Origin: Candidatus Eiseniibacteriota bacterium
Lineage (GTDB): Bacteria > Orphanbacterota > Orphanbacteria > Orphanbacterales > Orphanbacteraceae
Reading direction: 5' to 3'
NCBI GenBank assembly: GCA_043809585.1
Contig: JBDROZ010000070.1
Coordinates: 15,122-79,121 of the forward strand
Length of the DNA stretch: 64,000 nt
In this document: piece by piece, positions 9,706 to 56,893 of the stretch
How positions within the stretch are numbered: the stretch's first letter is position 1
Layout: every line of letters begins with the position of its first letter
Notes under the pieces: model-generated
Database searches by the model: none
What the model saw: only the letters and a program-made list of their open reading frames with translations
What the model was told of the DNA's origin: nothing
Made by a program: the position numbers and the translations under genes

Positions 9706-11247
9706 ATGCTTCTCGCGTGGGCCCTCGCGCTCCTCCTCGCCATCCCCGCGGGGGCGGACGAGGGGGGGCGCTTCTCGATCGACCTCGCCGAGAGGCACGA
9801 TATCCGGTTCCTCGGCGAGGATGAGGAGGACGAGATGGGTGTCCAGGTCCGCTTCGGGGACCTCGACGGCGATGGGTACGACGACGTGATCCTCGGCGCC
9901 TGGCTCGCCGACGGTCCGCGCAACCAGAGGGCCCGGTGCGGCGAGGTGTATGTCTACTTCGGCGGGGTCGTGGAGAAGAAGGGAGCGGCCTCCCTCGGCG
10001 CTTCGGTGATCTACGGCGCCGAGGCGAAAAGCCGGATCGGCTCCGCGGCGGACACGGGAGACTACGACGGAGACGGTGTCACCGACCTCCTGATCGGCGC
10101 CCGTTACTCCGACGGACCCGCCGACTCCCTCCGCCTCCGCTCCGGCGAGGCCTTCCTCCTGCTCGGCGGCTCCGACGGCTCGGCGAAACGCGTCGTCGAC
10201 CTTCGCCGCCATCCCGACGCGGTCATCGTGGGGCGCTTCGAGGGGGACCGGCTCGGGCGCCGCATCGTCGTGGAGGATCTCGACCGGGACGGCAAGGACG
10301 ACCTCCTCGTCGCCGCCGTGGGATCGGCCGGACGGGACACGGAGCGCCGCGACGCGGGGGCGGTCTACGTGATCTACGGCTCCCGCCGGGCCGACCTCGA
10401 GGGCCGCTTGGACCTTTCCCTCGCCGAGACTCCGGCCCTCCACGGCGCGGACGAATCGGACGCCCTCGGGAACGCCATGACCGTCGGCGATTGGAACGGC
10501 GACGACCTTCCCGATCTCTTCCTCGGATGCGGTTTCGCCGACGGGCCCGCCAACGGCCGGACCAACGGGGGGGAGGTCTTCGTCCTCTTCGGCGACGGCC
10601 TCCGCTTCCAAGGGGAACGGGTGGTCGAGGAGGGAACGGACTTCACCATCTACGGGGCCGAGCCGTACGACGGCGCGGGCATCGCGATCGCCGCCGGCGA
10701 CTTCGACGGCGACGGCTTGGACGACATCGCCGTGGGCGCGAGCCTCGGCGACGGTCCGGACAACTCCCGGGACAACTGCGGCGAAGTGTATCTCCTCTTC
10801 GGAGGCACGGGGACCCGCCCCGGCGACTCGATCGACCTCGCCGCGGGGGCGGACATCACATTCTTCGGCGTCGCCCCGGGGGACCAGCTCGGATCGGTTC
10901 TCCATCTCTTCGACTGGAACGGGGACGGCTACCAAGACCTGATCGTCTCCTCCCTCCTCCACGACGGACCAGGCGGCCGGCGCGTGGACGCCGGCATGGT
11001 GTACGCCACCCTCGGCGGGCGACAGTCGGCGCTCCGGCCCTTCATCGATTATGCCGGGGAGGAGGCGAATCTAATGCTCCTCGGGCCCACCCGGGGGGAC
11101 AAGATCGCGACTCTCCTCGAGGACGGGCTCATCGACGGAGCGGCGCGGCTGATCGCGGGCACCATGCTCGGCGACGGTCCGAACGACGAGCGGCGGGACT
11201 CGGGGGAGATCTACCTTCTCCCGTGGAAGCCGGGGGCGGAAGATTGA
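9706..11247 (+). CDS. Secreted FG-GAP (integrin-alpha beta-propeller) repeat protein
   Basis: Signal peptide MLLAWALALLLAIPAGA followed by ~7 repeats of the D-x-D/N-G-DG-x-DD...G-A..DG motif (DLDGDGYDDVILGAWLADGP, DYDGDGVTDLLIGARYSDGP, DFDGDGLDDIAVGASLGDGP etc.). Confidence 0.6.
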   Translation: MLLAWALALLLAIPAGADEGGRFSIDLAERHDIRFLGEDEEDEMGVQVRFGDLDGDGYDDVILGAWLADGPRNQRARCGEVYVYFGGVVEKKGAASLGASVIYGAEAKSRIGSAADTGDYDGDGVTDLLIGARYSDGPADSLRLRSGEAFLLLGGSDGSAKRVVDLRRHPDAVIVGRFEGDRLGRRIVVEDLDRDGKDDLLVAAVGSAGRDTERRDAGAVYVIYGSRRADLEGRLDLSLAETPALHGADESDALGNAMTVGDWNGDDLPDLFLGCGFADGPANGRTNGGEVFVLFGDGLRFQGERVVEEGTDFTIYGAEPYDGAGIAIAAGDFDGDGLDDIAVGASLGDGPDNSRDNCGEVYLLFGGTGTRPGDSIDLAAGADITFFGVAPGDQLGSVLHLFDWNGDGYQDLIVSSLLHDGPGGRRVDAGMVYATLGGRQSALRPFIDYAGEEANLMLLGPTRGDKIATLLEDGLIDGAARLIAGTMLGDGPNDERRDSGEIYLLPWKPGAED

Positions 11248-13277
11248 GCCCGTCCCCCGCGAGCATCGATCCGGAATCTCCGGTCCACTTTCTCCCCGGC
11301 ATCGGCCCGGCCCGTTCCGAGGATCTCGCGACGAGGGGGATCGCCACGGTCGGAGACCTCCTCCGCCTCTTTCCGCGGGAGTACATCCTTCCGGGGGAGC
11401 GGCGAAAGGTCGCCGAGGTCTCCGAAGGGGAAACGGCGGTTCTCGACGTCCGCCTCGAATCGATCCGGCTGCTCCGGCGGGGCTGGCGGCGGTCGGTGGT
11501 CGATGCGCGCGTCGCGGACGAGACCGGTTCCGCCCGCTGCCTCTGGTTCCACGCCGCCTATCTCGCCAAGTCCTTGAAGCCCGGCGCCCGGCTCCTCCTC
11601 AAGGGATCCCTCGGCGGGAAGCCGCCCGCCTTCCTCCATCCCCGATTCGAGGTGGTGCGGGACGGGGAGGAGTCCGAGTTCGAGCGGATCGTCTCAAGGT
11701 ACCCCTCCATTCCCCGGCTCCCTCCGCGCACGCTCCGGCGGGCGATCCGGTACGCCCTCGAACGGCTGCCGGCCGGGGAGGACCCCCTCCCGGAGGACCT
11801 TCGTGCGAAGCACGGCCTGCCCGAGTGGACCGAGTCCCTCCGGTCCGTGCACCGTCCCGAGGGGCCGGAGGAAGCCGCCCGGGCGAGGCGCCGCTTCGTC
11901 TTCGAAGAGCTCTACCGCCTGCAGTCCGCATTCGCCGCCGCGACCCGGTCCCGCGCGGAGGCGCGCGCCCCCCACGCCCATCCGGAACCGGGCCGGTTCT
12001 ACGAGCCCTTCTTGAAAGGTCTCCCGTTTCGCCTCACCGGGGATCAGGAGAGGAGCCTCCGGGAGATCCGGGCCGATCTCGAGTCGGGCCGTCCCATGGA
12101 GAGGCTTCTCGTGGGCGACGTCGGATCGGGAAAGACCGTCGTCGCCGCCGCCGCCATGGCGTGGGCCGCCGGGCACGGCGGGCAGGCGGCGCTCCTCGCG
12201 CCGACGGAAGTGCTCGCGCGCCAGCACCACCGCGTGCTCGAGGCCGCCTTCGGCCCCCTCGGCGCGAGTCCGGCCCTCCTGACGGGCGACCTCCCCGCGG
12301 CGGAGGCGCGGCGGGTGCGTGAGAGGATCGCTTCGGGAGAGGAACTCCTCGTCGTCGGCACCCACGCGCTCCTCCAGGAAACGACACGCTTTCATGATCT
12401 CGCCCTCGCGGTCGTCGACGAGCAGCACCGCTTCGGGGTGAGGCAGCGGGGCATTCTCCCCGGGAAAGGGGACAAGGCCCACTTCCTTCTTCTCTCGGCG
12501 ACTCCCATCCCTCGTTCCCTCGCCCTCACCTTGTACGGCGATCTCGACCTCTCCGTCATCAAGACGCTCCCGCCGGGGCGAAAGCCGGTGGAGACGAAGC
12601 GGGTGGCGGACAAGGGGGCGAAGGAGGCGTACGAGCGGCTGCGGGAGCGGGTGGACGCCGGGGAGCAGGGGTTCGTTCTCTTCCCCCTCGTCGAGGAAGA
12701 CGAGGCGGAGGACGCGCCCGAGGGTCCGAAGGCGGCGGTGCAGGCGGCGGACAAGCTCGCGAGGGGGTTCTTCCGGGGCCGCTCCGTGGGACTCCTGCAC
12801 GGGCGTCTTCCCGCGCCGGAACGGATCGAAACGATCGACAGGCTGCGACGGGGAGAGATCGACGTTCTCGTCGCCACCACGGTGGTCGAAGTGGGCGTCG
12901 ATCTCCCCCGGGCGACGGTGATGATCATCGAGAACGCCGACCGGTTCGGTCTCTCCCAGCTTCACCAGATCCGCGGCCGCGTCGGGAGGAGCGATCTCCC
13001 TTCGTGGTGTTACCTCGTGACGCGCGGACCGTTCACGCCCCAGGCGGAGGAACGCCTCGCCGTCCTCGAATCGGAGCGGGACGGCTTCCGGATCGCCGAG
13101 GAGGACCTCCGGCTCCGGGGCACGGGGGACCTTCTCGGGGAGCGGCAGCACGGACCTCTCGGCCTCGGCGCGGCGGACCTGATCCGCGACGCCGATCTGC
13201 TCGAGATCGCGCGGGCCGAGGCTTTCGCCCGCGGCCCCTCGGAGGGCCCCCTTCCCCGCCCTCCCCGGGCCGGATGA
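11244..13277 (+). CDS. recG: ATP-dependent DNA helicase RecG
   Basis: Wedge-domain N-terminus (LPGIGPARSEDLATRGIATVGDLLRLFPREY), Walker A GDVGSGKTVVA, DExH (VVDEQHRFG) and helicase C-terminal motifs. Likely TTG start at 11244 overlapping the upstream stop; the upstream 430 aa of ORF 9936..13277 are an alternative frame of the FG-GAP gene. Confidence 0.8.
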   Translation: MSPSPASIDPESPVHFLPGIGPARSEDLATRGIATVGDLLRLFPREYILPGERRKVAEVSEGETAVLDVRLESIRLLRRGWRRSVVDARVADETGSARCLWFHAAYLAKSLKPGARLLLKGSLGGKPPAFLHPRFEVVRDGEESEFERIVSRYPSIPRLPPRTLRRAIRYALERLPAGEDPLPEDLRAKHGLPEWTESLRSVHRPEGPEEAARARRRFVFEELYRLQSAFAAATRSRAEARAPHAHPEPGRFYEPFLKGLPFRLTGDQERSLREIRADLESGRPMERLLVGDVGSGKTVVAAAAMAWAAGHGGQAALLAPTEVLARQHHRVLEAAFGPLGASPALLTGDLPAAEARRVRERIASGEELLVVGTHALLQETTRFHDLALAVVDEQHRFGVRQRGILPGKGDKAHFLLLSATPIPRSLALTLYGDLDLSVIKTLPPGRKPVETKRVADKGAKEAYERLRERVDAGEQGFVLFPLVEEDEAEDAPEGPKAAVQAADKLARGFFRGRSVGLLHGRLPAPERIETIDRLRRGEIDVLVATTVVEVGVDLPRATVMIIENADRFGLSQLHQIRGRVGRSDLPSWCYLVTRGPFTPQAEERLAVLESERDGFRIAEEDLRLRGTGDLLGERQHGPLGLGAADLIRDADLLEIARAEAFARGPSEGPLPRPPRAG

Positions 13278-13406: not shown

Positions 13407-13820
13407 ATGGCGACGGAGAAGATAGTCAAGTGCCGTGTCCGGCGACCCGACGTGTCGGACGCACCCTCCAGCCCGCGCTTCGTCCCCCTCGACATCTTCA
13501 ACCTCTGGAAGTTCCTGATGGAAGAGCGGCACCGGTTCGAGGTGTTCGGCCCGAAAGCGTCCCTCTGGTTCGAGCGGGGGGCGGCGACCGAGTCGAGCTA
13601 TGTGGGCATCGAGTACGAGCCGGTGACGCAGGTGGAGCTCTTCTACTTCGCCGAAGAGGACGACATGCTCCACCAGGAGGTCCGCTACTTCCCCTCCGGC
13701 GACGAGGAAGAGTACGACCACATCAAACACGCCTTCACCGCCCACTACCGCAACCACAAGACCCGCGGCGACGGCGATCCGAAGCTGAACGAAAACCCCG
13801 GCGTCTTCATAAAACGATAA
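13407..13820 (+). CDS. Hypothetical acidic protein (137 aa)
   Basis: Clean ORF with ATG, no recognisable motif; somewhat lower GC than its surroundings; convergent with the S8 protease gene. Confidence 0.35.
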   Translation: MATEKIVKCRVRRPDVSDAPSSPRFVPLDIFNLWKFLMEERHRFEVFGPKASLWFERGAATESSYVGIEYEPVTQVELFYFAEEDDMLHQEVRYFPSGDEEEYDHIKHAFTAHYRNHKTRGDGDPKLNENPGVFIKR

Positions 13821-13823
13821 AGG

Positions 13824-16442
13824 CTATCGCAGCAGAGTCAACCTCTGGGTGAGTACCTCCGTCCCCTTCGTGAGGCGGGCGAAGTAAACGCCGGAGGCGA
13901 CCTCTTCCCCCCCGGGCCCCGTGCCGTCCCAGATCTCTTCGTACGAACCGGCGGAGAGGGTCTCGTTCAGGAGAACCCGGACCCGGCGGCCTTGGAGCGA
14001 GTAGATCTCGAGGGTCACCGGCGACGGTTCGGGGAGGTCGAACCGGAGGTGGGTGATCGGATTGAACGGGTTCGGCCGCGCCGGGTGGAGCCGGAAGAGT
14101 GCCGGGACGTCCCCTCCGATCGGCACGGCGGTGGCCCCGCCGCCGGTCGCGGCGCTCGAGGCGGCGCCGGGCGAGTAGTTGTGGAAGCGGTCGTAGGCGA
14201 ACGCGGCGTAGTGATAGCGCGTGCCGGGGAAAAGCCCCCGGTCCGTGAGCGTCGATCCGCCCGACGTGTCGACGACGACGAGATCGCCCGGGAGCGGATC
14301 GCCCGCCGCATAGGTCTCGCCGTCGTCCGGCCCCCACATGACGGCGGCCGAGCTCCGGACGAGAAGGACGCCCGCCCCGTCCGCCTCGTCCGGCGGCGCC
14401 CAGAGGAGGCCGATGGTCGTGTCGTCCACCGTAGTCGCCTCGAGAGAGTCGGGCGGGTCCGGAGCCCGTGTGTCGATGCCGACGAGGGAGAAGGTCTGAC
14501 TCGTCCCGACAGGCACGTTTCCGCCCGTGACCCGGGCGGTCCATGTCCCTTCCTGGGGAGAGAGGGCCACGACCTGTTCCACGTTGTTCAGGTGATCGAC
14601 GCCGGTCACGGCCGACGCCGCCGGGTTGGACGGGTCGAGCACGGATGGGTACGCGGGGGGGGCCGTCGGCGGTAGGAGCAAGAGGTCGAGATCGTTCACG
14701 AGGGCCGGATTCGCGAGGGGGGTTCCGGCCGGGTCGTCCCAAACCAGGGTGACCTTCAGCTCCGGGAATCCGGCGGGTACCGGGAACGTCCACTCCCGGA
14801 CGCCGCCGTCGGAGACGCTGTCCTCGATCACCGTGGCGAACCGGACGCGATCGGCCGCACGCTTCACGTTCATCCGCCCGTAGCCGAACCGGTAGTCCGG
14901 TCCCGGGTTGCCGAGGTCGTCCGCCGTCCCGAGGAGCAGGGCCTTCAGCGTCGAGGGCCACGGCGGACTCCCGACGGCCCCCCACGTCTCGAGGAGGAGG
15001 GCCACGGCCCCCGAGACGGCCGGAGTCGCCATCGACGTCCCGCAGTAGTAGGCCGAACCGTAGGTGTCGCCGGACCAGGTCGACCAGATCGAGTAGTTGT
15101 AGTTCGACTGGCAGCCGCCGGCGACGATGTCCGGCTTCACCCGGCCGTCGTCCACGGGGCCGTATCCGGAGAACGTGGTCATGGACGAGTTGTTCGTGTT
15201 GACGGCGCCGACGGTGATCACGTTCTTCGCCGTCCCCGGCGGGGGAACGCAGGCGTATCCGCTCCGGGCGGCGATCCCGCAGTCGCCGTCGTTCCGCTCG
15301 TTCCCCGCGGCGACGACGATGGGGATCCGCTTTCCGAAGTAGCCCGCCACCACGGCGTCGAACTCGGGGGCGTAGCCGTCGTAGTCGCCGTAGAAGTAGC
15401 AGTTGTTCCACGCCGTCTGATCGACGTCGAGCACCCACGAGTTGGACGTGAGGTCCACGTCGTAAGCGGTGATGGCCGACCCGTACTCGCCGGGGATGTC
15501 GCCGTAGTAGTCGTACGAGAGCATCGAGCAGTCCGGCGCGACCCCGCGCCACTGGTTCGGCAGCGCGCCGAACAGGGCGGACCGCGCCCCCGACCCCCCG
15601 AGGGTCCCGGCCACATGGGTGGCGTGATCGGACGTCGGCGCGCCGGTGTCCACCACGAGCAGACGGCCGCCGAAGTCGGAGTGGGCGGCGATGGGGCCGC
15701 CGTCCCAGATGCCCGCCGTCACACCCGATCCGAGGATCGACAGGGGCGCGGCATGGACCGAATCGACGTTGCCGTTCTCCCGGATGCCGTCGTTCGCCGG
15801 CACCGGGGGGGGAAGGGGGGCCCCGATCCAGAGGACCTCGTCTTTCGCGGCGAGTGAGTCGAGGGCCGTCACCGGGAGGTTCGCGTCGAACCCGTGGAAG
15901 ACGGTCCTCCCGAGAACCGGAGTCCCCCCGGCCCGGGAGATGATGGTCGCCCCCTCGTAGAGGTCCACGTCCTCGTGAAACCGGACCCGGAGGGGAATGG
16001 CCCCCGCTTTCTTCCCGAGCGCCTCTTCCGCGACGGCCGGCGCGATCTTCGCCTTCACCGGGATCGTTCCGACCCAGCGGATCTCCTCGGGAGGGAGGGC
16101 GGCCCAGTCCGCCCCGCCATCCACGGAGACGATCCACGTGTCCCGGGGGAGATAGGCGAGCAGCGAGAACCCGGCCCGCCGGAGGCGGTCCCGGTCCGGT
16201 TTCGTGTGGAACTGGAAGAGCAGCCGCCGGTTCCCCTCCGAAGCGAGCCTCCGCCCCTCGGCGGCGGCTTCGGGCAGGCTCGCCGGGGTCATCGTCCCCG
16301 CCCCCTTCCATTGGATCCGGTAACTGGGCGGGGGGGAGGCGCTTCCGGGGGGCGTGGGGTCCTCCGGGTTCCTCCCCACGGCGGCGGCCGCGAGGAGGAC
16401 GAGAAAGACCACGGAAAACCCGGCGAGCCTCGCAGAATGCAC
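13824..16442 (-). CDS. Secreted subtilisin-like serine protease (S8) with C-terminal T9SS-type / FlgD-Ig-like sorting domain
   Basis: Subtilase catalytic motifs (VVDTG... Asp, HATHVAGT... His, GTSMATPAVSGA... Ser) and a C-terminal PNPFNPITHLRFDLP...LEIYSLQGRRV...GSYEEIWDG...SGVYFARL sorting domain. GTG start at 16442 precedes the signal peptide VHSARLAGFSVVFLVLLAAAAVG. Confidence 0.75.
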   Translation of the reverse strand: MHSARLAGFSVVFLVLLAAAAVGRNPEDPTPPGSASPPPSYRIQWKGAGTMTPASLPEAAAEGRRLASEGNRRLLFQFHTKPDRDRLRRAGFSLLAYLPRDTWIVSVDGGADWAALPPEEIRWVGTIPVKAKIAPAVAEEALGKKAGAIPLRVRFHEDVDLYEGATIISRAGGTPVLGRTVFHGFDANLPVTALDSLAAKDEVLWIGAPLPPPVPANDGIRENGNVDSVHAAPLSILGSGVTAGIWDGGPIAAHSDFGGRLLVVDTGAPTSDHATHVAGTLGGSGARSALFGALPNQWRGVAPDCSMLSYDYYGDIPGEYGSAITAYDVDLTSNSWVLDVDQTAWNNCYFYGDYDGYAPEFDAVVAGYFGKRIPIVVAAGNERNDGDCGIAARSGYACVPPPGTAKNVITVGAVNTNNSSMTTFSGYGPVDDGRVKPDIVAGGCQSNYNYSIWSTWSGDTYGSAYYCGTSMATPAVSGAVALLLETWGAVGSPPWPSTLKALLLGTADDLGNPGPDYRFGYGRMNVKRAADRVRFATVIEDSVSDGGVREWTFPVPAGFPELKVTLVWDDPAGTPLANPALVNDLDLLLLPPTAPPAYPSVLDPSNPAASAVTGVDHLNNVEQVVALSPQEGTWTARVTGGNVPVGTSQTFSLVGIDTRAPDPPDSLEATTVDDTTIGLLWAPPDEADGAGVLLVRSSAAVMWGPDDGETYAAGDPLPGDLVVVDTSGGSTLTDRGLFPGTRYHYAAFAYDRFHNYSPGAASSAATGGGATAVPIGGDVPALFRLHPARPNPFNPITHLRFDLPEPSPVTLEIYSLQGRRVRVLLNETLSAGSYEEIWDGTGPGGEEVASGVYFARLTKGTEVLTQRLTLLR

Positions 16443-16576
16443 GGCCGAGGAGTGCGATTCGCCCCCTCGCCGGAACCGCCGCGGGCGTACCCGGGCCCTC
16501 CCCGAGAGACCTCTGCTAAAGCCTCGGTATCTCAACAAGTTCCGATCGTCCTCCGGGCCCGGAGACGGGCCCTTCC

Positions 16577-16591
16577 TGGCATGAGACTTGC
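16577..16591 (+). promoter_or_regulatory. Candidate sigma-54 promoter TGGCAT-gagac-TTGCC upstream of mglA-like gene
   Basis: TGGCAT at 16577-16582, TTGC at 16588-16591, exact GG-N10-GC spacing; predicted TSS ~16603, ATG at 16651. Confidence 0.45.
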
Positions 16592-16650
16592 CCTGATTTT
16601 GAACTCCCAACTTGCAAGGTTTGCGCCGAACGCGATCGGAGGCTTTGAAC

Positions 16651-17892
16651 ATGGTGGTTTTCAACTACAGCGGCAAAGAGATCAACGCGAAGATCGTTTA
16701 CTACGGGCCGGGGCTTTCGGGAAAGACCACGAACCTCGAGCGGATCTACGGTCACGTGCCGGAGCAGCGCCGGGGGAAGATGGTCTCCATGAAGACCCGG
16801 AGCGACCGGACCCTATTCTTCGACTTCCTCCCCGTGAACGCCGGGGAGATCCGCGGGTTCCGAACCCGATTCCTCCTCTACACCGTTCCGGGTCAGGTCC
16901 ACTACAACGCGACCCGGAAGCTGGTCCTGAAGGGGACGGACGCGATCATCTTCGTCGCCGATTCCGATCCCGCCCTCCGGCAGGCGAACATCGAGAGTAT
17001 GCAGAACCTCGAACAGAATCTCGCCGAATACCAGCTCTCGGTCGAGAAGATCCCCGTGATCCTCCAGTTCAACAAGCGGGACCTGCCGAACGCCCTCACG
17101 CCGGAGGAACTGAACGGGGACCTGAACCGTCACGGGTGGCCCTGGTTCCAGGCGGTGGCCGTGAGCAACGAGGGCGTGTGGGAGACGTTCCGGGCCGCCA
17201 CGCGGGCGCTCTTCGAGAGCCTGGAGCGCACCCTCGGCGGCGAAGAGAAGGGGAAGAAGAGAGCGGGGGGGACCCCGGCCCCCGCCGAACCGGAAACCGC
17301 GAAGAAAGAGAAAGCCCCGGCGGATCCGCGGTTCCAGCCGAGCGCGCCGGTCTACGACGTGGGGGGCACGGTGGACGACGTGGTTCGCCTCTCCGACTCG
17401 CTGAAGTCGTGGAGCGCGGACGTCGCCGCCGGGCCCGAAAAGACGGACGATGCGGTCCCGGCCGCCGGGCCCGCCGAACGGGGGGAGGCGAGGGATGGCC
17501 GCTGGGAAGACCCGCTTGCGGGCGAGGGGCGCGCTCTGGGGGGAATCGACGATGGCGGGGGCAACGATCTTCCGGCGAAGCCGGCCCCACCCGCGGAGCT
17601 CGTCCCTTCCGACGATCCTGTTCCGCTGGCCGAGGGGACTTCCCCGGGGGATGGGGAGCGGAGCTCGACCCCGGGGGTCGAGGTAGCGGCCGCTCCCGAG
17701 CCGCGGCCCGCCGCGCCGGCCCGAGCGCCGGACGGCGTGGTTCGGGTCCCGGTCGAGATCGACGCGGGGAGCGGCCGGGTTCGGCTGGAAATCGCCCTCG
17801 AGATCCGTTTTGTCTCCTCCGACGCCCCGAAAGCGGCGGAACCGGAGGGGGAGCCGGCGGGCTCCCTTGACCACGAACCGGCCTGGTCGTAG
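16651..17892 (+). CDS. mglA: MglA-like Ras-family small GTPase with ~215-aa low-complexity C-terminal extension
   Basis: MVVFNYSGKEINAKIVYYGPGLSGKTTNLERIY...TRSDRTLFFDFLPVNAGEIRGFRTRFLLYTVPGQVHYNATRKLVLKGTDAIIFVADS...ILQFNKRDLPNA aligns almost position-by-position with Myxococcus MglA (P-loop, switch regions, NKxD). After ~residue 200 comes a Pro/Ala/Glu/Gly-rich tail that continues to the stop at 17892. Confidence 0.75.
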   Translation: MVVFNYSGKEINAKIVYYGPGLSGKTTNLERIYGHVPEQRRGKMVSMKTRSDRTLFFDFLPVNAGEIRGFRTRFLLYTVPGQVHYNATRKLVLKGTDAIIFVADSDPALRQANIESMQNLEQNLAEYQLSVEKIPVILQFNKRDLPNALTPEELNGDLNRHGWPWFQAVAVSNEGVWETFRAATRALFESLERTLGGEEKGKKRAGGTPAPAEPETAKKEKAPADPRFQPSAPVYDVGGTVDDVVRLSDSLKSWSADVAAGPEKTDDAVPAAGPAERGEARDGRWEDPLAGEGRALGGIDDGGGNDLPAKPAPPAELVPSDDPVPLAEGTSPGDGERSSTPGVEVAAAPEPRPAAPARAPDGVVRVPVEIDAGSGRVRLEIALEIRFVSSDAPKAAEPEGEPAGSLDHEPAWS

Positions 17893-17938
17893 AATCGAAC
17901 CGTCCGACATCGCCGGGGTGTCATGCCCCGGAAGGAGG

Positions 17939-18418
17939 ATGCTCGTGCGGTCGATTCCGGTCCTGATCGCTCTTTTCGCGACGTTCTCTCCCGGCTTCGC
18001 CGGCGAACTCCCCTACGGGGGGGTGGGCGGCTCGGGAGAGAGCGTTTTTCAATATCCGAGCCGGGGGATGCTCGGCATCCTCGACCCGGCGAAGCTCTCC
18101 GTGTCCCACGAGATGTCTTATTTCTACTCGACCGGCTCGGGAAGCGTGCCGGGGGGCGGCCTCGGTCTCTACCAGAACCGTCTCACCTATCAGGTGGCCG
18201 ACCCCCTCCGGATCACCCTGCACCTCGGGTACCAGTTCGCCTCGCCCGTCGGGTCCACGTACGGGGGCGATCAGTCGGCGAACGCATTCCTTCCCGGTCT
18301 CTCGATCTCTTACCGGCCGACGGAAAACACGCTGGTCCGGTTCGACTACCGGCAACTCCCCGGCGCCTACTCCGCCTACCGGCCCTGGTCTCTCCGGGAG
18401 CCGTACCCCGTCGACTGA
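17939..18418 (+). CDS. Small secreted beta-strand-rich protein (possible small outer-membrane barrel)
   Basis: Strong SD GGAAGGAGG before ATG 17939, signal peptide MLVRSIPVLIALFATFSPGFAG, Gly/Tyr-rich alternating hydrophobic pattern. Confidence 0.45.
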   Translation: MLVRSIPVLIALFATFSPGFAGELPYGGVGGSGESVFQYPSRGMLGILDPAKLSVSHEMSYFYSTGSGSVPGGGLGLYQNRLTYQVADPLRITLHLGYQFASPVGSTYGGDQSANAFLPGLSISYRPTENTLVRFDYRQLPGAYSAYRPWSLREPYPVD

Positions 18419-18539
18419 CCCATCCCCCCCCGATTACCGATCCCGGCTTGACTTGGCCCGGCTCCGTGGGCTAAACCAGGAACAGGGTGTCGCGGGGACG
18501 GCGCGGTCGGAAGGGCCGTCCCGAACGGAGGTGAATGCC

Positions 18540-39578: not shown

Positions 39579-41936
39579 TTACGAACGGGCCCCGGAAGAC
39601 GCCGCCGAATCGGCCGCGGTTCCGGAGCGCTTCCATTGCTTCCGGCCGGCGAGAAACACCGGATTCATGAGCGAGAGAATCGCCGGGAAGGCGAAGAAGG
39701 TGGTGATGCCGCTCACCACCATGATCGCGAAAAAGAAGGCCCCCACCGTCACGTAGGGAACCAGGCTCGCGAAGAACATGGGGACGAATCCGATGGCGAT
39801 CACCAGGATGTTCCGCGTGATCGCCCGGGAGGGGGCCTCGAAGATCGCGGACATGGTCGCCTTGAAGTCGCCGGTCACCCGGTAGATCTCGCGGCTCCGC
39901 TGCAGGAAGTGGATCGCGAAGTCGATCGAGAGGCCGAGCGTGAGGGACGAGAGAACCGCCACGGGCATGTCGTACGGCTTCCCGATGAAACCGATGAGGC
40001 CGTACACCAGCGTGATCGTCGCGGTCAGCGGGATCACGGACAGAATGCCGAGCCGCACCGACCGGAAGAGGAAGATCATCATCACGAGCACCGTGAAGAA
40101 GCTGCCGAGCAGGGCCTTCATCATGCCGTTCACCATCCTCTGCTGCCAGATCACGTTGATGTACGACATGCCCGCCCACCGGGCGACGAGCCCGCCCGGC
40201 GGCGGGTTCCTCACGAGGAAGTCATCCGCCGACCGCACCACGCTGCTCACTTCCCTGTTCTCCCCCCGGTGCATCTGGACCCAGATGTTCGCCCGGTCCG
40301 ACTCGGGGGTGATGAACTTGAAGAGGTCGTCCGGCGAGCCCCCCGACATCTCGTACAGGAAGAGGTACTGGGCGATCTCCTCCCGCGAGTCGGGGACGAT
40401 CCCCTCCGCCGGGTCCCGTTTCAGCTCTTCCCGCACCTTCTTCACGATGTCCACGATCGACGTCGTGGCGCCCACGTTCGGGTGCTTGTCCAGGTGCTTC
40501 TGAAGGCGTTCCACGTACTTCATCGCCTCCGGGTCCTTCAGGCCCCCCTCCTCGCCCGACTGCACCGAGAGGTACGCGAGATAGGTGCCGGCCAGATGGC
40601 GGTTCATCACCTCGTCGGCGACCCGGAGAGGGTGCCCCGCCTTGAACCACTTCACGGGGTTGTCATTCACGACGATCTTGCTCACTCCGACCGCGGAGAG
40701 CAGGAAGACGAGCACGCCCACGACCACGATCGGCTTGTGGAATCGGAGCGCGAAGTCGCGGATGAAGTGCATCGATCGGCGCATCGCGGCGCCCCCCTCG
40801 CCGGTGGCCCCGAACTTCGCCAGGGTCTTCTTCGGCAGGAGCACCGCGTAGGCGATGTTGAACGTGACGGAGAGGAGCCACGCCGACGCGATGCCGAAGG
40901 CGACGAAGCCGCCGAAGACCTGTACCGGCGGGATCGGGGTCACGATCAAAGAAGCGAAGCCGACCACCGTGGTCAAAGATGTGAAGATCATCGGGATGAA
41001 AAGCTCGTCCATGGTCTCCACGATGGTCAGCTTCATGTCGAGGTGGCGCTGGTACCGTTCGTGAAACTCACTCAGGATGTGGATCGAGTTGAGCACCGCG
41101 ATCGGTATCAGGAAGATCGGAATCATCGAGGACATGATGTGGACCGTGTAGCCGAGGCCGATCAGAAGGCCCATGGTCCAGATCACGCTGATGACGGCGA
41201 CGATCATCGGGGCCGCGATGATGGCCGCGTTGCGGAAGAAGAAGAAGAGCAGGAGGAAGATCACCACGAACGCCGCCGGGGCGGAGACCACCATCTGCTT
41301 GAACATCTCGGCGCCGAAAGTGTCTTGGGCGAGGGGCATGCCGGCGAGGAAGTACTCCTCGTCGTCGCTGCCGAGCTCCGCGAGAACCCCCTCGATCTCG
41401 GTCGCCACCCGGTGGGAGACGTCTTTCGACTCGAGGGGCACGAAGATCGCCATGGCCTTGCCGTTGTCGGAGGCGAGCTTGCCCCGAAGCACCGGGTTCT
41501 TCTTGATCTGGGCGAGCACGCGGGCCGATCCTTCTTCGTCCCTCGGCGCCTCTTCCATGAGTGTCTCTACCCGGAGGATGCCCTCTTCGGTAGTGAAGAT
41601 GTCGTCCACGTCCGTGGGGGCGAGAAGGTCGTCATCGATAACGCCGTCCATCTCCCGGATCCGTTCGGTGATCTCGACGACCCGCGCGAGGGTGGCCGGG
41701 TTGAAGACGCCCTCTTCCTTCACGATGCCCACCACGAGGATGTCGTGAAGCCCGAAGACCTCCTTTACCTCATCGTGAAAGACGCGGACCTCCTCGTTCT
41801 CGGGGAGCATGTTCTCCGGGTCCGTGTCGATGTAGATCTTGGGGAGCTGAACGGCGAAGGCCACGGTCACGGCCAGAATCAGTGCGATGACCACCTTCGG
41901 ATGGTGCATGGAAAAGTCGACCAGGAACCTTTTCAC
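39579..41936 (-). CDS. MMPL-family RND superfamily exporter
   Basis: 785-aa 12-TM protein with two large periplasmic loops and duplicated 6-TM bundles; RND/MMPL motifs (GxSxDFxIHF, [24 protein letters not shown]); GTG start after a GGGAGGAAG SD. Confidence 0.8.
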
Positions 41937-41994
41937 TTTCCTGCTTCCTCCCGTGATAGAGCGGACGGTGTTTCGATTCGATACTCCACCCTAC

Positions 41995-42010
41995 TGCAAC
42001 CGGGGGGCCA
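41995..42010 (-). promoter_or_regulatory. Candidate sigma-54 promoter TGGCCC-cccgg-TTGCA driving the MMPL operon
   Basis: On the minus strand tggccccccggttgca gives GG-N10-GC with a perfect TTGCA -12 element; predicted TSS ~41984, GTG at 41936. Confidence 0.45.
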
Positions 42011-42103
42011 ATACACCGCCGATCCGTCCTCTAAACCACAAGCCATTGAAATCATTGCGAATAGTGTCTCGAAGACAGGTCGGGCCGGACTCCCTCGCTG
42101 CTG

Positions 42104-42160
42104 TTTTTGTTGCGCCGGCCCGGAATTGACGCAATATTCTGTTGCGCCGGGTCGCAACAA
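42104..42160. promoter_or_regulatory. Enhancer-like TGTTGCG dyads between the sigma-54 promoter and the activator gene
   Basis: Perfect inverted repeat TGTTGCG-N6-CGCAACA at 42140-42159 and TGTTGCG-N15-CGCAA at 42108-42134; ~100-170 bp upstream of the predicted TSS. Confidence 0.4.
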
Positions 42161-42221: not shown

Positions 42222-43616
42222 ATGAAGGCGGACGTCGGCAACCTGCAGGTTTGCATGGCCCAGAAGGCGAACATGGAGGCCATCTTTCACAGCGTGGCCG
42301 ACGGCATTCTCACGGTGGACGCCCACCTCGTGATCACGAACATCAATCATGCCGCCGCCCGGGTGATCGGCGTCGAACCGGCGGAGGCCGTCGGCAGGCC
42401 TCTCCGGGAGGTCCTGCTCTGCCGGCTCTGGCGACTCGGCCCGATGCTGAAGGAGACCATGGAGACCGGCGAGGGGGTGGCGGAGCGCGAGAACATCCTC
42501 GTCCGCCCCGACGGCAACGAGATCCGCGCCCTCCTGACGACGAACCGCCTCCTCGACAGCGACGACAAAGTGGCGGGGGCGGTGATCATCCTCCGCGACA
42601 TCACCCACCTCCGGGAACTCGAGGTCCGCCTCGAGGACCGCGCCGCCCTCCACTCCCTCGTCGGGAAGAGCCATCGGATGCAGGAGGTCTATACACTGAT
42701 CGAGCAGGTGGCGCCGACGGACTCGACGGTGTTCATCCAGGGGGAGAGCGGCACCGGGAAGGAGCTGATCGCCGACGCGATCCACCGGAGCAGCACCCGG
42801 CAGGGCGCCCCCTTCATCAAGGTCAACTGCTCCGCCCTCTCCGAGAGCCTCCTCGAGAGCGAGCTGTTCGGGCACGTGAAGGGCGCGTTCACGGGGGCCA
42901 CGTACGACCGGAAGGGGCGGTTCGAAATGGCCACGGGCGGGACGATCTTCCTCGACGAGATCGGCGACCTGACCGAGCGCATCCAGGTGAAGCTGCTCCG
43001 GGTGCTCCAGGAGCGGGAGATCGAACGGGTGGGGGACACGAAGGTCATGAAGATCGACGTCCGCGTTCTCGCCGCCACCCACCAGCCACTGAAAAAGCTC
43101 GTGGACGAGGGCCGCTTCCGCAAGGACCTCTTCTATCGGCTGAACGTGATTCCCATCCACGTCCCCCCCCTCCGGGACCGAAAAGAGGACATCCCGGCCC
43201 TCGCGTCGGTCTTCCTCAGGGAGCTGTCGGCGCGCATGAGGAAGAAGCTCGAGAAGATCTCCCACGACGCCTTGCGGGCGATGATGGATTACGGGTGGCC
43301 GGGCAATGTGCGGGAACTCCGGAACGCCTTGGAGCACGGGGCGGTGAAAACCCGGGGCCCGGCGATCCTCCTCGAGGACCTGCCGGGGGAAATCGTCTCG
43401 GAGACGGCGAAGATCGATTCCGCCTACAGCGCCGGCCCGACCGGGCGCGGCTGGGGAAGCGTCACCCCCTGGGGCGGCCCCCGGGACGAGGGGAAGGCGA
43501 TCCGCACCGCCCTCGAAAAGACCGGGTGGCACCGGGGCAAGGCGGCCCAGATCCTCGGCATCGACAGAACCACGCTCTGGCGGAAGATGAAGCGCCTCGG
43601 CATCGACATGAATTAG
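42222..43616 (+). CDS. Sigma-54-dependent transcriptional activator (PAS sensor - AAA+ sigma-54 interaction - Fis-type HTH)
   Basis: GESGTGKE Walker A, GAFTGA sigma-54 contact motif ([16 protein letters not shown]), DEIGDL Walker [11 protein letters not shown]-terminal HTH ([22 protein letters not shown]). Start at ATG 42222 after GGAAGGAGGAAGGG; the upstream 920 codons of ORF 39453..43616 are antisense to the MMPL operon. Confidence 0.85.
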
Positions 43617-43620
43617 CGTC

Positions 43621-43680
43621 TCCCGCGCAACAGCACGAATGTTGCATTCTGTTGCACCCGAAAGCCGCGCAACAACGCCG
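43621..43680. promoter_or_regulatory. Second array of TGTTGC dyads immediately downstream of the activator gene
   Basis: CGCAACA-N7-TGTTGCA (43626-43646) and TGTTGCA-N12-GCAACA (43652-43678); shares attctgttgcRcc with the upstream array. Confidence 0.35.
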
Positions 43681-43843
43681 CTGCCGGCGCCGCCCCTGCC
43701 AACTCTTTGTTTTACCTTCTATTACAAGAAAGACCGTGGTTTGTCATGGTTCCTGCAATTACCTCGGGGCGAACGGAAGAGAGCGGCGGGCCGAGCGCCG
43801 CGATGAGAGCGAAGAAGGAAACGAGTCCCAGGAGAAGGTAACC

Positions 43844-56229: not shown

Positions 56230-56700
56230 ACCCCGGTAGAAATTGCTATAACACAAACATTGTCATTTGATTACGGGATCGCATTTTGGACGAGCCTAAA
56301 ACGAATCGTTCACAATAATAGTCCCTTCTTCTTCTGAATAAGATCTCTAGTAGTAGTAGTAGGGGCTGCGGATATGTGGACAAAAGCACGGGAAGCCGTC
56401 TCTCTCTCGAATTCGAGGTCCTCCGTCGAGTGAGTCGTCCACGGGCTTGTGGACGACCTCCGGAGAAAGGGACGACTTGTCCACCGTCCCCCGGGGAGGA
56501 CCGATCCGTCCACCGATCGGGCCTCTTCTTCCACGAGTCATGCACCGGTTTGTCCACGGGCGATCTTCCTGTCCTCTTCCTTGGTGTTTTCCGTTACTTT
56601 CGTGGTCTTCCTCTCCGGAGAAGGAACCCTGAAGCATTATGTGAGCATTAGTGAATGCGAGCACTGCGGCAGATGACGTGCCATCGCGCGAGCGTCAGCG
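56230..56700. promoter_or_regulatory. Chromosomal replication origin (oriC): AT-rich unwinding element plus DnaA-box cluster between dnaN and dnaA
   Basis: AT-rich 56240-56360 (tgctataacacaaacattgtcatttg..., aataatag, tagtagtagtag). DnaA-box variants: TGTGGACAA 56375-83, TCGTCCACG 56445-53, TGTGGACGA 56458-66, TTGTCCACC 56487-95, CCGTCCACC 56516-24, TTGTCCACG 56560-68. Confidence 0.55.
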
Positions 56701-56893
56701 ATTCGCACCGGGATTTCTTGCCGGATTAACCTGGGTTATGCATGAATCTCCGTCACGAGGGCTCGGATCGCCTGACGAGCCGCCACCGGAGGCGTAGTTA
56801 TACACTACGCCGAGGAGGCGGCGATGGAAAGGAGGCTTCGCAGGCGGCGATCCGAGATCGCAGTAGGAGATTTGTGCATAATCCAGGTTAAGG

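What the first reader, a model, noticed from the sequence alone, without database searches (positions are those of the whole stretch)
16560..16625. Back-to-back candidate sigma-54 promoters between the S8 protease and the mglA-like gene
On the plus strand TGGCAT-gagac-TTGCC (16577-16591) precedes mglA. On the minus strand cGGCGCAaaccTTGCA (16617-16603) has a perfect -12 and a weaker -24 element and would drive the S8 protease. The two -12 elements are only ~12 bp apart, so the divergent promoters would overlap. This suggests coordinated or mutually exclusive sigma-54 control of a polarity GTPase and a secreted protease.
Basis: seen in the sequence. Interest (0 to 1): 0.5.

Follow-up and report, generated by a model that had tools for sequence, protein, structure and literature searches.

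The report
Two head-on sigma-54 promoters at mglA
In an uncultured Eisenbacteria genome, the cell-polarity GTPase gene mglA has a strongly conserved sigma-54 promoter, and 23 bp away a weaker sigma-54 site faces it head-on; that second site occurs only in genomes where a secreted protease gene was inserted on the other strand, so this is an ordinary promoter type in an unusual arrangement.

Summary
Both motifs exist. The minus-strand one was mis-placed by 11 nt: it is at 16628->16613, not 16617-16603. The geometry is face-to-face, not back-to-back. The two -12 GC elements are 23 bp apart, and the predicted start sites coincide at about 16602/16603.

The plus-strand element TGGCATGAGACTTGCC (16577-16592) is almost certainly a real sigma-54 promoter for mglA.
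- It is the best sigma-54 PWM hit in the 64-kb window with two independent matrices.
- An equivalent site lies upstream of mglA in about 60% of 158 homologous loci from Eisenbacteria, Krumholzibacteria and Latescibacteria, against 1.2% of control windows.
- It has conserved enhancer-like TGCA palindromes 110-150 nt upstream.
- The window encodes a sigma-54 activator protein.

The minus-strand element CGGCGCAAACCTTGCA is weaker: rank 3 of 128,000 positions with an E. coli ChIP-derived matrix, rank 11 with a lineage matrix. It is nevertheless conserved in all 10 distinct genomes that carry the divergent S8 protease gene, with GG and TTGC invariant. It is absent from 83 sigma-54-positive mglA loci without that gene. 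No sigma-70-type promoter, Rfam family or conserved RNA structure explains it.

It is probably (about 0.5-0.65) a second sigma-54 site serving the protease. Nothing has been tested experimentally.

The parts
16577..16592 (+). Sigma-54 (-24/-12) promoter of mglA: TGGCATGAGACTTGCC. GG is at 16578-79 and GC at 16590-91; the predicted TSS is about 16603.
   Evidence: It is the only TGGCA-N6-TTGC in the window. It ranks 1 of about 128,000 positions with the lineage PWM (19.3 bits) and with the E. coli ChIP PWM (15.8 bits). TGGCA and CTTGCC are invariant and the spacer varies in 10 clade members. An orthologous site is present in 93 of 158 loci against 1.2% of control windows.
16613..16628 (-). Second sigma-54-type element, CGGCGCAAACCTTGCA, read on the minus strand. 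GG is at 16627-26 and GC at 16615-14; the predicted TSS is about 16602, pointing towards the S8 protease gene.
   Evidence: Rank 3 (11.7 bits, E. coli PWM) and rank 11 (8.6 bits, lineage PWM). C-GG-C...TTGC-[A/T] is invariant in 10 distinct S8-clade sequences, with changes only at degenerate positions. It is absent from 83 sigma-54-positive loci that lack S8; their best score is 9.0 bits and their median is -1.6.
16593..16612 (.). Shared start and melting region between the two -12 elements. It is 19 nt of poorly conserved sequence in most members and 21 nt in three.
   Evidence: Sequence and alignment. The start sites are inferred from the rule that the TSS lies about 12 nt after the C of the GC element.
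16430..16442 (.). Enhancer (UAS) candidate site 1, TCGCAGAATGCAC, an imperfect TTGCA-N3-TGCAA palindrome. It overlaps the GTG start codon of the protease at 16442.
   Evidence: Invariant in the clade. The same GCAGAATGCA element is non-coding in the distant loci L035, L052 and L034. TGCA-type pentamers peak 110-140 nt upstream of the -24 element in 82 loci. The 9-mer TGCATTCTG occurs only here and at 43643.
16452..16463 (.). Enhancer (UAS) candidate site 2, GTGCGATTCGCC (TGCG-N3-CGC palindrome). Its centre is about 22 bp from site 1.
   Evidence: TGCG..TTCGC is invariant in 10 sequences. Relatives carry paired sites about two helical turns apart.
16530..16541 (.). Conserved block TCTCAACAAGTT between the enhancer and the promoter, at -73 to -62 from the plus TSS. 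It resembles an IHF site (WATCAA-N4-TTR).
   Evidence: Conserved in the clade; L082 has TATCAAACGCTT at this position. The IHF reading is inference only.
16638..16642 (+). Shine-Dalgarno sequence GGAGG of mglA.
16651..17892 (+). mglA-like gene: a MglA GTPase domain plus a 215-aa low-complexity C-terminal extension.
   Evidence: PDB match to MglA 5ymx/6h17/3t12 at E=5e-68; Pfam Arf/Ras/Roc.
13824..16442 (-). Secreted S8 serine protease gene with a signal peptide and a FlgD_ig-type C-terminal domain. It sits between orf137 and the mglA control region in this clade only.
   Evidence: Pfam. The synteny recG-orf137-mglA-x-TPR holds in most loci; S8 is present only in WIN, L007, L081, L082, L161-L164 and L169-L171.
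42222..43616 (+). PAS-Sigma54_activat-HTH_8 enhancer-binding protein. It shows that the organism uses sigma-54, and it is a candidate (unproven) activator of the mglA promoter.
   Evidence: Pfam Sigma54_activat E=1.9e-72. It is flanked by TGTTGCA-type repeats, including the twin of the mglA enhancer 9-mer.

Best explanation
The 208-bp spacer between the S8 protease gene and mglA is an enhancer-dependent sigma-54 control region.

(1) Plus-strand promoter. The -24/-12 element at 16577-16592 is the promoter of mglA. Sigma-54 holoenzyme would bind it as a closed complex. It would fire only when an AAA+ activator, bound to the paired TGCA palindromes at 16430-16463 (about 140-170 bp upstream of the start), loops over. 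The conserved block at 16530-16541 may help that looping. Transcription would then start near 16603. This arrangement predates the protease gene and is shared by many Eisenbacteria, Krumholzibacteria and Latescibacteria. Confidence about 0.9. The sequence conservation is shown; the mechanism is inferred from the sigma-54 paradigm.

(2) Minus-strand site. In the clade where the S8 protease gene was inserted upstream, a second, weaker sigma-54 site arose on the other strand at 16628-16613. It faces the first, with the two -12 elements 23-25 bp apart and both predicted starts at about 16602/16603. It most likely gives the otherwise promoter-less protease gene a sigma-54 promoter with a 160-nt leader, using the same enhancer, which lies downstream of that start. 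Confidence about 0.65 that it binds sigma-54 holoenzyme, and about 0.5 that it is the protease promoter.

(3) Consequence. Both sites would melt the same few base pairs, and each lies in the other's initial transcribed region. Only one polymerase can therefore fire at a time. One signal would switch on both genes, and the split would be set by competition between a strong site and a weak one. This step is inference.

The overall confidence of 0.55 refers to the whole picture, (1) to (3) together.
For: Plus site.
- It ranks 1 in the window with two independent PWMs.
- Matches of at least 10/12 to the consensus are 32-fold enriched in the 250 nt upstream of mglA homologs.
- 93 of 158 loci have a site of at least 12 bits against 1.2% of control 300-nt windows.
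- The -24 and -12 elements are invariant with a variable spacer across leader lengths of 55-244 nt.
- TGCA palindromes are positionally fixed 110-140 nt upstream.
- No sigma-70-like promoter is found in 16300-16800.
- An EBP gene is in the window.
- A second conserved sigma-54 promoter (TGGCCC-N5-TTGC) lies next to that EBP gene.

Minus site.
- It scores 11.7 bits, rank 3 of 127,966, so about 0.003 chance hits of this quality are expected in the 208-nt spacer on that strand.
- In the 10-sequence alignment only two places keep at least 11 bits in every sequence, the plus site and this one; the third best is 2.6 bits.
- GG and TTGC are invariant, all substitutions fall at degenerate consensus positions, and the last base is only A or T.
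- It is present in 10 of 10 S8-clade sequences and in 0 of 83 other sigma-54-positive loci.
- E. coli holoenzyme-bound sites include near-identical sequences such as TCGGCGCAACTTTTGCAG. G at -22 occurs in 22% of those sites and C at -26 in 17%.
- The protease gene has no upstream gene on its own strand and no recognisable sigma-70 promoter.
- No conserved RNA structure and no Rfam family accounts for the block.
Against: - There is no experimental datum of any kind: no TSS, and rpoN itself is not in the window.
- The minus site scores only 3-13 bits with the lineage PWM, where orthologous mglA promoters score 13-27.
- In every member it lacks the consensus T at -26 and A at -22.
- It has no enhancer on its own upstream side, which is mglA coding sequence. 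Activation would have to come from a site about 135-170 bp downstream of its start.
- Distant S8 homologs elsewhere have no sigma-54 site, and some have sigma-70-like -10 boxes.
- The S8 clade is monophyletic, so presence or absence counts as one evolutionary event.
- The protease start codon has no Shine-Dalgarno sequence, and the 160-nt leader would run through the other promoter and the enhancer.
Confidence: 0.55

Rival explanations
1. Only the plus-strand promoter is a sigma-54 site. The conserved block 16613-16628 (plus strand GCAA-N7-GCCG, at +11 to +26 of the mglA transcript) is an operator for another DNA-binding protein, or a leader element that tunes mglA in this clade. The protease would then be transcribed from a promoter type these tools cannot recognise.
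For: The lineage PWM score is low, at 3-13 bits. The element has non-consensus bases at -26 and -22 in all members and no enhancer on its own upstream side. Part of the block resembles the enhancer half-site: TGCAA, with a 2-mismatch hit to TTGCA-N3-TGCAA at 16605-16617. Distant S8 homologs are not sigma-54 controlled.
Against: The element is asymmetric, unlike typical dimer operators. Its invariant bases are exactly the sigma-54 core, GG-N8-TTGC[A/T]. It scores at the 32nd-100th percentile of sites bound in vivo in E. coli. No conserved RNA pairing was found. It occurs only where the protease gene is present.
Confidence: 0.2
2. The minus-strand element does bind sigma-54 holoenzyme, but as a silent competitor rather than a promoter. 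A closed complex parked head-on 23 bp from the mglA promoter would damp or gate mglA expression, and the protease gene would be expressed by other means.
For: Sigma-54 holoenzyme forms stable, transcriptionally inactive complexes. The E. coli ChIP-seq paper (PMC4591121, read) reports that sigma-54 can repress when its site overlaps another promoter. The sites' geometry makes simultaneous firing impossible.
Against: The element appears only in the clade that acquired the protease gene. It points at that gene, and no other promoter for that gene is visible. The same paper found no roadblock effect of intragenic sites in E. coli.
Confidence: 0.15
3. Both motifs are chance matches in a lower-GC spacer, and both genes use unrecognised sigma-70-type promoters.
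For: Simple consensus counting puts the minus element at chance level. Spacers are AT-richer than coding DNA.
Against: The plus element is conserved across three candidate phyla, with 50-fold enrichment over control windows. Both elements are invariant in a spacer where only 19% of columns are invariant. No sigma-70-like site was found there, although the same scan finds one at 17867-17895.
Confidence: 0.02

Closest known systems
Classical enhancer-dependent sigma-54 promoters (for example glnAp2, nifH, Pu: UAS - IHF bend - GG-24/GC-12). This description comes from general knowledge of the family.
   Same: It has GG-N10-GC geometry and the TGGCAYG-N4-TTGC consensus. Paired palindromic sites lie about 140-170 bp upstream of the start, spaced about two helical turns apart. 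A conserved AT-rich block sits between them. An EBP with a Sigma54_activat domain is encoded in the genome. There are no -35/-10 boxes.
   Different: The controlled gene is mglA, a Ras-like polarity and motility GTPase. No paper in the searched library links mglA to sigma-54. The host is an uncultured FCB-group lineage. The activator and the signal are unknown.
Divergent sigma-54 promoter pairs that share an activator region (for example E. coli zraP/zraSR and hyc/hyp). This comparison is from memory and was not checked here.
   Same: Two oppositely oriented sigma-54 promoters in one spacer could respond to one activator.
   Different: In those pairs the promoters are back-to-back, with the activator sites between them and separate start regions. 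Here the sites face each other, the enhancer lies to one side, the predicted starts coincide, and each site lies in the other's transcribed region.
Intragenic and antisense sigma-54 binding sites, and sigma-54 promoters with long 5' UTRs, in E. coli (Bonocora et al. 2015, PMC4591121).
   Same: These are weak-to-moderate sites with C at -26 or G at -22 that are bound in vivo (for example TCGGCGCAACTTTTGCAG). They include promoters with long leaders that run antisense to or through other features, and they are conserved.
   Different: In E. coli those sites lie inside genes and far from another sigma-54 promoter. Here the second site sits 23 bp from a strong sigma-54 promoter, in head-on orientation.
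Myxococcus xanthus mglBA operon
   Same: The gene product is a close MglA homolog (E=5e-68 to 5ymx).
   Different: No mglB (Roadblock/LC7) gene is adjacent. orf137 and the 160-aa downstream gene have no MglB signal. The protein carries a 215-aa C-terminal extension. The promoter type proposed here has not been reported for mglA in the searched library.

Membership tests
Sigma-54 (-24/-12) promoter: plus element 16577-16592 | GG and GC dinucleotides exactly 10 bp apart within TGGCAC-N5-TTGC | tested here: met
   TGGCATGAGACTTGCC matches 10/12 of the consensus and is the only TGGCA-N6-TTGC in the window.
Sigma-54 (-24/-12) promoter: plus element 16577-16592 | PWM score in the range of bona fide sites and above the genomic background | tested here: met
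   Rank 1 of about 128,000 positions with both PWMs, and the 98th percentile of E. coli ChIP-associated motifs.
Sigma-54 (-24/-12) promoter: plus element 16577-16592 | Conservation of the -24 and -12 elements, with a free spacer, upstream of orthologous genes | tested here: met
   93 of 158 loci against 1.2% of controls. TGGCA and CTTGCC are invariant in 10 clade members with a variable spacer.
Sigma-54 (-24/-12) promoter: plus element 16577-16592 | Upstream activator (EBP) binding sites about 80-200 bp from the start | tested here: met
   Paired TGCA palindromes at 16430-16463. Across 82 loci such pentamers peak at -140 to -110 from the -24 element. EBP binding itself was not tested.
Sigma-54 (-24/-12) promoter: plus element 16577-16592 | The genome encodes sigma-54 (rpoN) and at least one EBP | tested here: inconclusive
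   An EBP with Sigma54_activat (E=1.9e-72) is at 42222-43616. rpoN is not in the 64-kb window and the rest of the genome could not be read.
Sigma-54 (-24/-12) promoter: plus element 16577-16592 | Transcription start about 12 nt after the GC, dependent on rpoN and an EBP | not testable with these tools
   Needs 5'-end mapping and genetics or in vitro transcription.
Sigma-54 (-24/-12) promoter: minus element 16628-16613 | GG and GC exactly 10 bp apart within the consensus | tested here: met
   CGGCGCAAACCTTGCA matches 9/12. The geometry is kept in all 10 clade sequences.
Sigma-54 (-24/-12) promoter: minus element 16628-16613 | PWM score in the range of bona fide sites | tested here: inconclusive
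   With the E. coli ChIP PWM it scores 11.7 bits (rank 3, 32nd percentile), and relatives score 12.9-16.6 bits. With the lineage PWM it scores only 8.6 bits (rank 11), and relatives score 3-13 bits against 13-27 for mglA promoters.
Sigma-54 (-24/-12) promoter: minus element 16628-16613 | Conserved core with a free spacer, in the right orientation upstream of a gene | tested here: met
   GG and TTGC[A/T] are invariant in 10 sequences, and only degenerate positions vary. The element points at the S8 gene, whose start is 160 nt downstream. It is absent where S8 is absent.
Sigma-54 (-24/-12) promoter: minus element 16628-16613 | Activator sites on its upstream side | tested here: not met
   No TGCA-type site was seen when reading the mglA coding sequence to its right, around 16730-16780. 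The only enhancer-like sites lie 135-170 bp downstream of its predicted start.
Back-to-back divergent sigma-54 promoter pair with a shared intervening UAS | Promoter elements lie between the two start sites and the activator sites lie between the promoters | tested here: not met
   The plus element (16577-92) is to the left of the minus element (16613-28). The predicted starts coincide at 16602/3, and the UAS lies to one side at 16430-63.

The most novel reading that the evidence does not exclude
After a protease gene landed next to an ancient sigma-54-controlled mglA promoter, a second sigma-54 site evolved in situ, head-on to the first. Two holoenzymes then compete for one melting region and one enhancer. 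The result would be a single-enhancer, bidirectional either/or switch that partitions each activation event between a polarity GTPase and a secreted protease. As far as I know and as far as the papers searched show, this face-to-face, shared-start architecture has not been described for sigma-54 promoters.
Probability: 0.4. Interest if true: 0.6.

Novelty: new variant of a known kind. Interest (0 to 1): 0.45.

Why it matters
MglA is the master polarity and motility switch in Myxococcus and Thermus. Almost nothing is known about it in the FCB-group candidate phyla. A sigma-54 promoter conserved across Eisenbacteria, Krumholzibacteria and Latescibacteria implies that mglA is off by default there. 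It would be switched on only when a signal-sensing AAA+ activator fires. That gives a concrete handle on when these uncultured bacteria use the MglA module: the enhancer motif and a candidate PAS-domain activator.

If the head-on second site is functional, it is a compact natural example of promoter competition within the sigma-54 system. It would also show how a newly inserted gene can capture an existing enhancer. Both points can be tested with short DNA fragments, heterologous sigma-54 holoenzyme, and metatranscriptome 5' ends.

If only the plus promoter is real, the finding is an ordinary new member of a well-known promoter class.

Tried and rejected
- Simple consensus counting. The minus element is at chance level by this measure. 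I replaced it with PWM and conservation tests.
- Sigma-70 promoter and terminator scan of 16300-16800. Nothing was found. The same scan does find a TTGACC-17-TAGAAT at 17867-17895.
- Rfam at E<=1. No family matched.
- RNAalifold on the 10 mglA leaders. The result was -0.1 kcal/mol with no covariation, so the leader-structure idea was dropped.
- orf137 (13407-13820) as MglB. There was no Pfam or PDB match.
- ORF 17923-18474 as MglB. It is the wrong frame. The real gene is 17938-18418, a secreted beta-rich protein with no Pfam hit.
- EBP genes 2-3 kb upstream of mglA in another clade (L011, L024, L027 and others) as orthologs of the window's EBP. They share only the generic AAA+ domain similarity of 46-54%, which is the same level seen with E. 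coli NtrC. That is no evidence of orthology.
- Distant S8 homologs (41-44% identity) as carriers of an ancestral sigma-54 promoter. None has one.
- The long antisense ORF across the spacer (13824-16664). It is not coding, because indels are not in frame and there is no in-frame start upstream of the GTG at 16442.
- TTGC-N3-12-GCAA and TTGCA-N3-TGCAA counts in the window. Neither is enriched on its own. Only the 9-mer TGCATTCTG is informative.
- Literature. No paper links mglA or Eisenbacteria with sigma-54 control. No report of face-to-face sigma-54 promoters turned up.
- The window's exact MglA protein is not on record in the contig index.

Full report
WHAT IS IN THE SEQUENCE

The window is 66% G+C. 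Its closest relatives are MAGs labelled Candidatus Eisenbacteria.

Around the finding the genes are:
- recG (9936-13277, +);
- a 137-aa ORF of unknown function (13407-13820, +);
- an S8 serine protease with a signal peptide and a FlgD_ig-type C-terminal domain (13824-16442, -);
- a 208-bp spacer;
- an MglA GTPase gene (16651-17892, +; E=5e-68 to M. xanthus MglA 5ymx) that carries a 215-aa low-complexity C-terminal extension;
- a small secreted protein gene (17938-18418, +);
- a TPR protein gene;
- trpA.

The plus element is therefore to the left of the minus element, and the two are face-to-face, not back-to-back. The C of each GC element is at 16591 and 16614, 23 bp apart. With the usual 12-nt distance from that C to the start, both starts fall at 16602/16603.

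IS THE PLUS ELEMENT A SIGMA-54 PROMOTER?

TGGCA-N6-TTGC occurs once in 64 kb, against 0.09 expected.

I fetched 160 loci that encode MglA homologs from genome and metagenome collections. The results were as follows.
- Matches of at least 10/12 to TGGCACG-N4-TTGCW are 32-fold denser in the 250 nt upstream of mglA than elsewhere in the first 80 loci.
- I built a PWM from 43 relatives' sites, leaving out the window and its two nearest relatives. It ranks the window's element first of 127,954 positions, at 19.3 bits.
- To avoid circularity I built a second PWM from 149 E. coli ChIP-seq-associated sigma-54 motifs (S2 Table of PMC4591121). This also ranks the element first, at 15.8 bits, the 98th percentile of those sites.
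- With the E. coli PWM, 93 of 158 loci have a site of at least 12 bits in the 300 nt upstream of mglA, against 1.2% of 4,847 control windows.
- The sites sit at leader lengths from 55 to 244 nt in different lineages. The leaders are unrelated in sequence, and only the -24/-12 element is kept.
- In the window's own clade, TGGCA and CTTGCC are invariant while the spacer changes: GAGA, GTCT, ACCT, GGGA, GGCT.

The surroundings fit the sigma-54 paradigm.
- TGCA-type pentamers peak sharply 110-140 nt upstream of the -24 element in 82 non-redundant loci. They form paired TTGCA-N3-TGCAA-like palindromes about 21 bp apart.
- The window has TCGCAGAATGCAC (16430-16442) and GTGCGATTCGCC (16452-16463) at exactly that distance, and both are invariant in the clade.
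- The element GCAGAATGCA is also found, non-coding, in distant Latescibacteria and Krumholzibacteria loci.
- A conserved block, TCTCAACAAGTT (16530-16541), lies between the enhancer and the promoter and resembles an IHF site. That reading is inference only.
- No sigma-70-like promoter, terminator or Rfam family is present in 16300-16800.
- The window encodes a PAS-Sigma54_activat-HTH_8 activator at 42222-43616 (E=1.9e-72; NCBI names it a sigma-54-interacting regulator).
- Next to that gene, on the minus strand upstream of an MMPL/LolA-like operon, is another sigma-54 element, TGGCCCCCCGGTTGCA (42010-41995). In a relative it reads TGGCCCAAGGGTTGCG, with the core kept and the spacer changed.

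The organism therefore uses sigma-54, although rpoN itself is outside the window. I put the plus element at about 0.9 as a genuine sigma-54 promoter of mglA.

THE MINUS ELEMENT

By plain consensus counting it is at chance level. The lineage PWM gives it only 8.6 bits (rank 11), below nearly all orthologous mglA promoters, which score 13-27 bits. Four other results nevertheless speak for it.

1. Score against bound sites. With the experimentally derived E. coli PWM it ranks third in the window at 11.7 bits, the 32nd percentile of bound sites. About 0.003 chance hits of that quality are expected in the spacer on that strand. The homologous elements in relatives score 12.9-16.6 bits, the 56th-100th percentile. 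Among the E. coli motifs, G at -22 occurs in 22% and C at -26 in 17%. One of those motifs, TCGGCGCAACTTTTGCAG, is almost the same sequence.

2. Association with the protease gene. The protease gene is a clade-specific insertion. Most loci have recG-orf137-mglA, and only the window and 10 further loci carry S8 between orf137 and the mglA control region. In all 10 distinct sequences of that clade the element reads C-GG-C-[G/T]-[C/T]-[A/G]-A-N-N-[C/T]-TTGC-[A/T]. GG and TTGC never change. Every substitution falls at a position that is degenerate in the sigma-54 consensus, and the base after GC is only A or T.

3. Conservation within the spacer. Only 40 of 208 columns are invariant. In the whole alignment only two places keep at least 11 bits in every sequence, the plus promoter (minimum 14.5) and this element (minimum 11.7). 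The third best is 2.6 bits.

4. Absence elsewhere. Among 88 distinct sigma-54-positive mglA loci, the five S8-clade members in that set are the only ones with a strong antisense site within 75 nt downstream of the promoter. The other 83 have a median of -1.6 bits and a maximum of 9.0.

Two further points bear on it.
- The distance from the plus -12 element is 19 or 21 nt, whereas the distance to the mglA ATG varies by up to 11 nt. That ties the block to the promoter rather than to translation.
- The leaders show no conserved RNA structure.

The protease gene has no co-directional upstream gene and no recognisable sigma-70 promoter, so some promoter must lie in this spacer.

Against the sigma-54 reading:
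- the site lacks an enhancer on its own upstream side;
- the protease mRNA would have a 160-nt leader running through the mglA promoter and the enhancer;
- the GTG start has no Shine-Dalgarno sequence;
- distant S8 homologs (41-44% identity) in other contexts have no sigma-54 site, and some have sigma-70-like -10 boxes;
- the clade is monophyletic, so the presence/absence pattern is a single evolutionary event.

I put it at about 0.65 for a sigma-54 holoenzyme site and about 0.5 for the protease promoter.

HOW IT WOULD WORK (INFERENCE)

Each holoenzyme would bind its -24/-12 element as a closed complex. The activator, bound at 16430-16463, would reach either one by looping. That position is upstream of the mglA start and downstream of the protease start. 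Enhancers of this class are known to act from either side; this is general knowledge and was not tested here.

The two sites would melt overlapping base pairs around 16600-16605. Each lies within the first 25 nt transcribed from the other, so firing is mutually exclusive. The strong plus site should win most of the time.

PMC4591121 reports that sigma-54 can repress when its site overlaps another promoter, and that sigma-54 promoters can have long leaders. A purely repressive role for the minus site therefore remains a rival.

CANDIDATE ACTIVATOR

The 9-mer TGCATTCTG occurs only twice in the window, against 0.12 expected, and no shuffle out of 100 gave two or more. One copy is in enhancer site 1 of mglA. 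The other is at 43643-43651, just downstream of the PAS-EBP gene.

The block TGTTGCATTCTGTTGCAC at 43640-43657 is conserved in a relative. Eisenbacteria mglA enhancers commonly read TTGCATTCTGC.

This makes the EBP at 42222-43616 a reasonable but unproven activator of mglA.

COMPARISON AND NOVELTY

The plus promoter is a standard enhancer-dependent sigma-54 promoter attached to an unexpected gene. No paper in the searched library connects mglA or Eisenbacteria with sigma-54.

Divergent sigma-54 pairs are known. From memory, examples are zraP/zraSR and hyc/hyp, and these are back-to-back. A face-to-face pair with a shared start and a one-sided enhancer was not found in the literature search and is not known to me. 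If functional, it is a new variant of a known kind.

Overall interest is moderate: solid comparative support, a neat and testable architecture, but no experimental evidence and a well-understood promoter class.

Noticed in passing
window 41995-42010 (-), 42100-42160, 42222-43616 (+): A likely second sigma-54 promoter, TGGCCCCCCGGTTGCA, lies upstream of the MMPL/LolA-like operon (39579-41990, minus). It is divergent from a PAS-Sigma54_activat-HTH_8 activator gene, with TTGCG...CGCAA palindromes between them. In relative L172 the -24/-12 core is kept and the spacer differs.
   Followed up: partly
window 43638-43658 and 43737-43757 (+), upstream of trxA (ATG 43844): The conserved repeat TGTTGCATTCTGTTGCAC is followed about 85 nt later by TGGTTTGTCATGGTTCCTGCA. 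That second block looks like a -24/-12 element with GT in place of the essential GG. Both blocks are conserved in L172. L003 has a similar TGTAACGTATTTTGCA 141 nt upstream of its mglA. Whether this is a variant sigma-54 site or something else is unexplained.
   Followed up: partly
window 16433-16442 / 16442: The GTG start codon of the S8 protease lies inside enhancer site 1 (GCAGAATGCAC). That element is non-coding in distant loci without the protease, so the inserted gene's first codons (V-H-S-A) overlap an older regulatory site. NCBI's annotation starts the protein 10 codons further in (862 aa against 872 aa).
   Followed up: partly
window 17251-17892 (+): MglA carries a roughly 215-aa Pro/Ala/Glu/Gly-rich C-terminal extension with no Pfam hit. 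Clade relatives also encode 400-410-aa MglA proteins, and the extension is only about 35% identical between them.
   Followed up: no
window 17867-17895 and 17938-18418 (+): The gene after mglA encodes a roughly 160-aa protein with a signal peptide and a beta-rich sequence. It has no Pfam family and is conserved in the clade. It has its own sigma-70-like promoter (TTGACC-17-TAGAAT) overlapping the end of mglA. The mechanically listed ORF 17923-18474 is the wrong frame.
   Followed up: partly
window 56231-56894 (dnaA-dnaN spacer): This is a probable oriC. It has several TGTGGACAA-type DnaA boxes, plus a palindromic sigma-54-like sequence TGGCACGTCATCTGCC at 56683->56668. That sequence is the second-best E. 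coli-PWM hit in the window at 13.4 bits.
   Followed up: no
L011, L024, L027, L046, L069, L083-L085 (e.g. L027 2657-2672, minus): Another Eisenbacteria clade has no plus-strand sigma-54 site for mglA. It has a strong minus-strand one (CGGCACGCAAGTTGCA) 270-370 nt upstream of mglA. That site lies about 45 nt before a divergent small Cys/His-rich gene, in an operon that ends with an EBP gene.
   Followed up: partly
L041, L042, L048, L053, L056, L063, L070, L073, L077 (about 1.2-1.3 kb upstream of mglA): Krumholzibacteria-type loci share a recurrent TGGCACGGTTCTGGCT on the plus strand about 1.2-1.3 kb upstream of mglA. They also have a conserved hairpin (GGGCCCTCTCTCAATACGGGAGAGGGCC) just upstream of the mglA enhancer, probably the terminator of the preceding gene.
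   Followed up: no
L002, L004, L005, L006: The nearest relatives outside the S8 clade (MglA 71-82% identical) have recG or orf137 directly upstream and no recognisable sigma-54 site. The promoter has therefore been lost or replaced several times.
   Followed up: no
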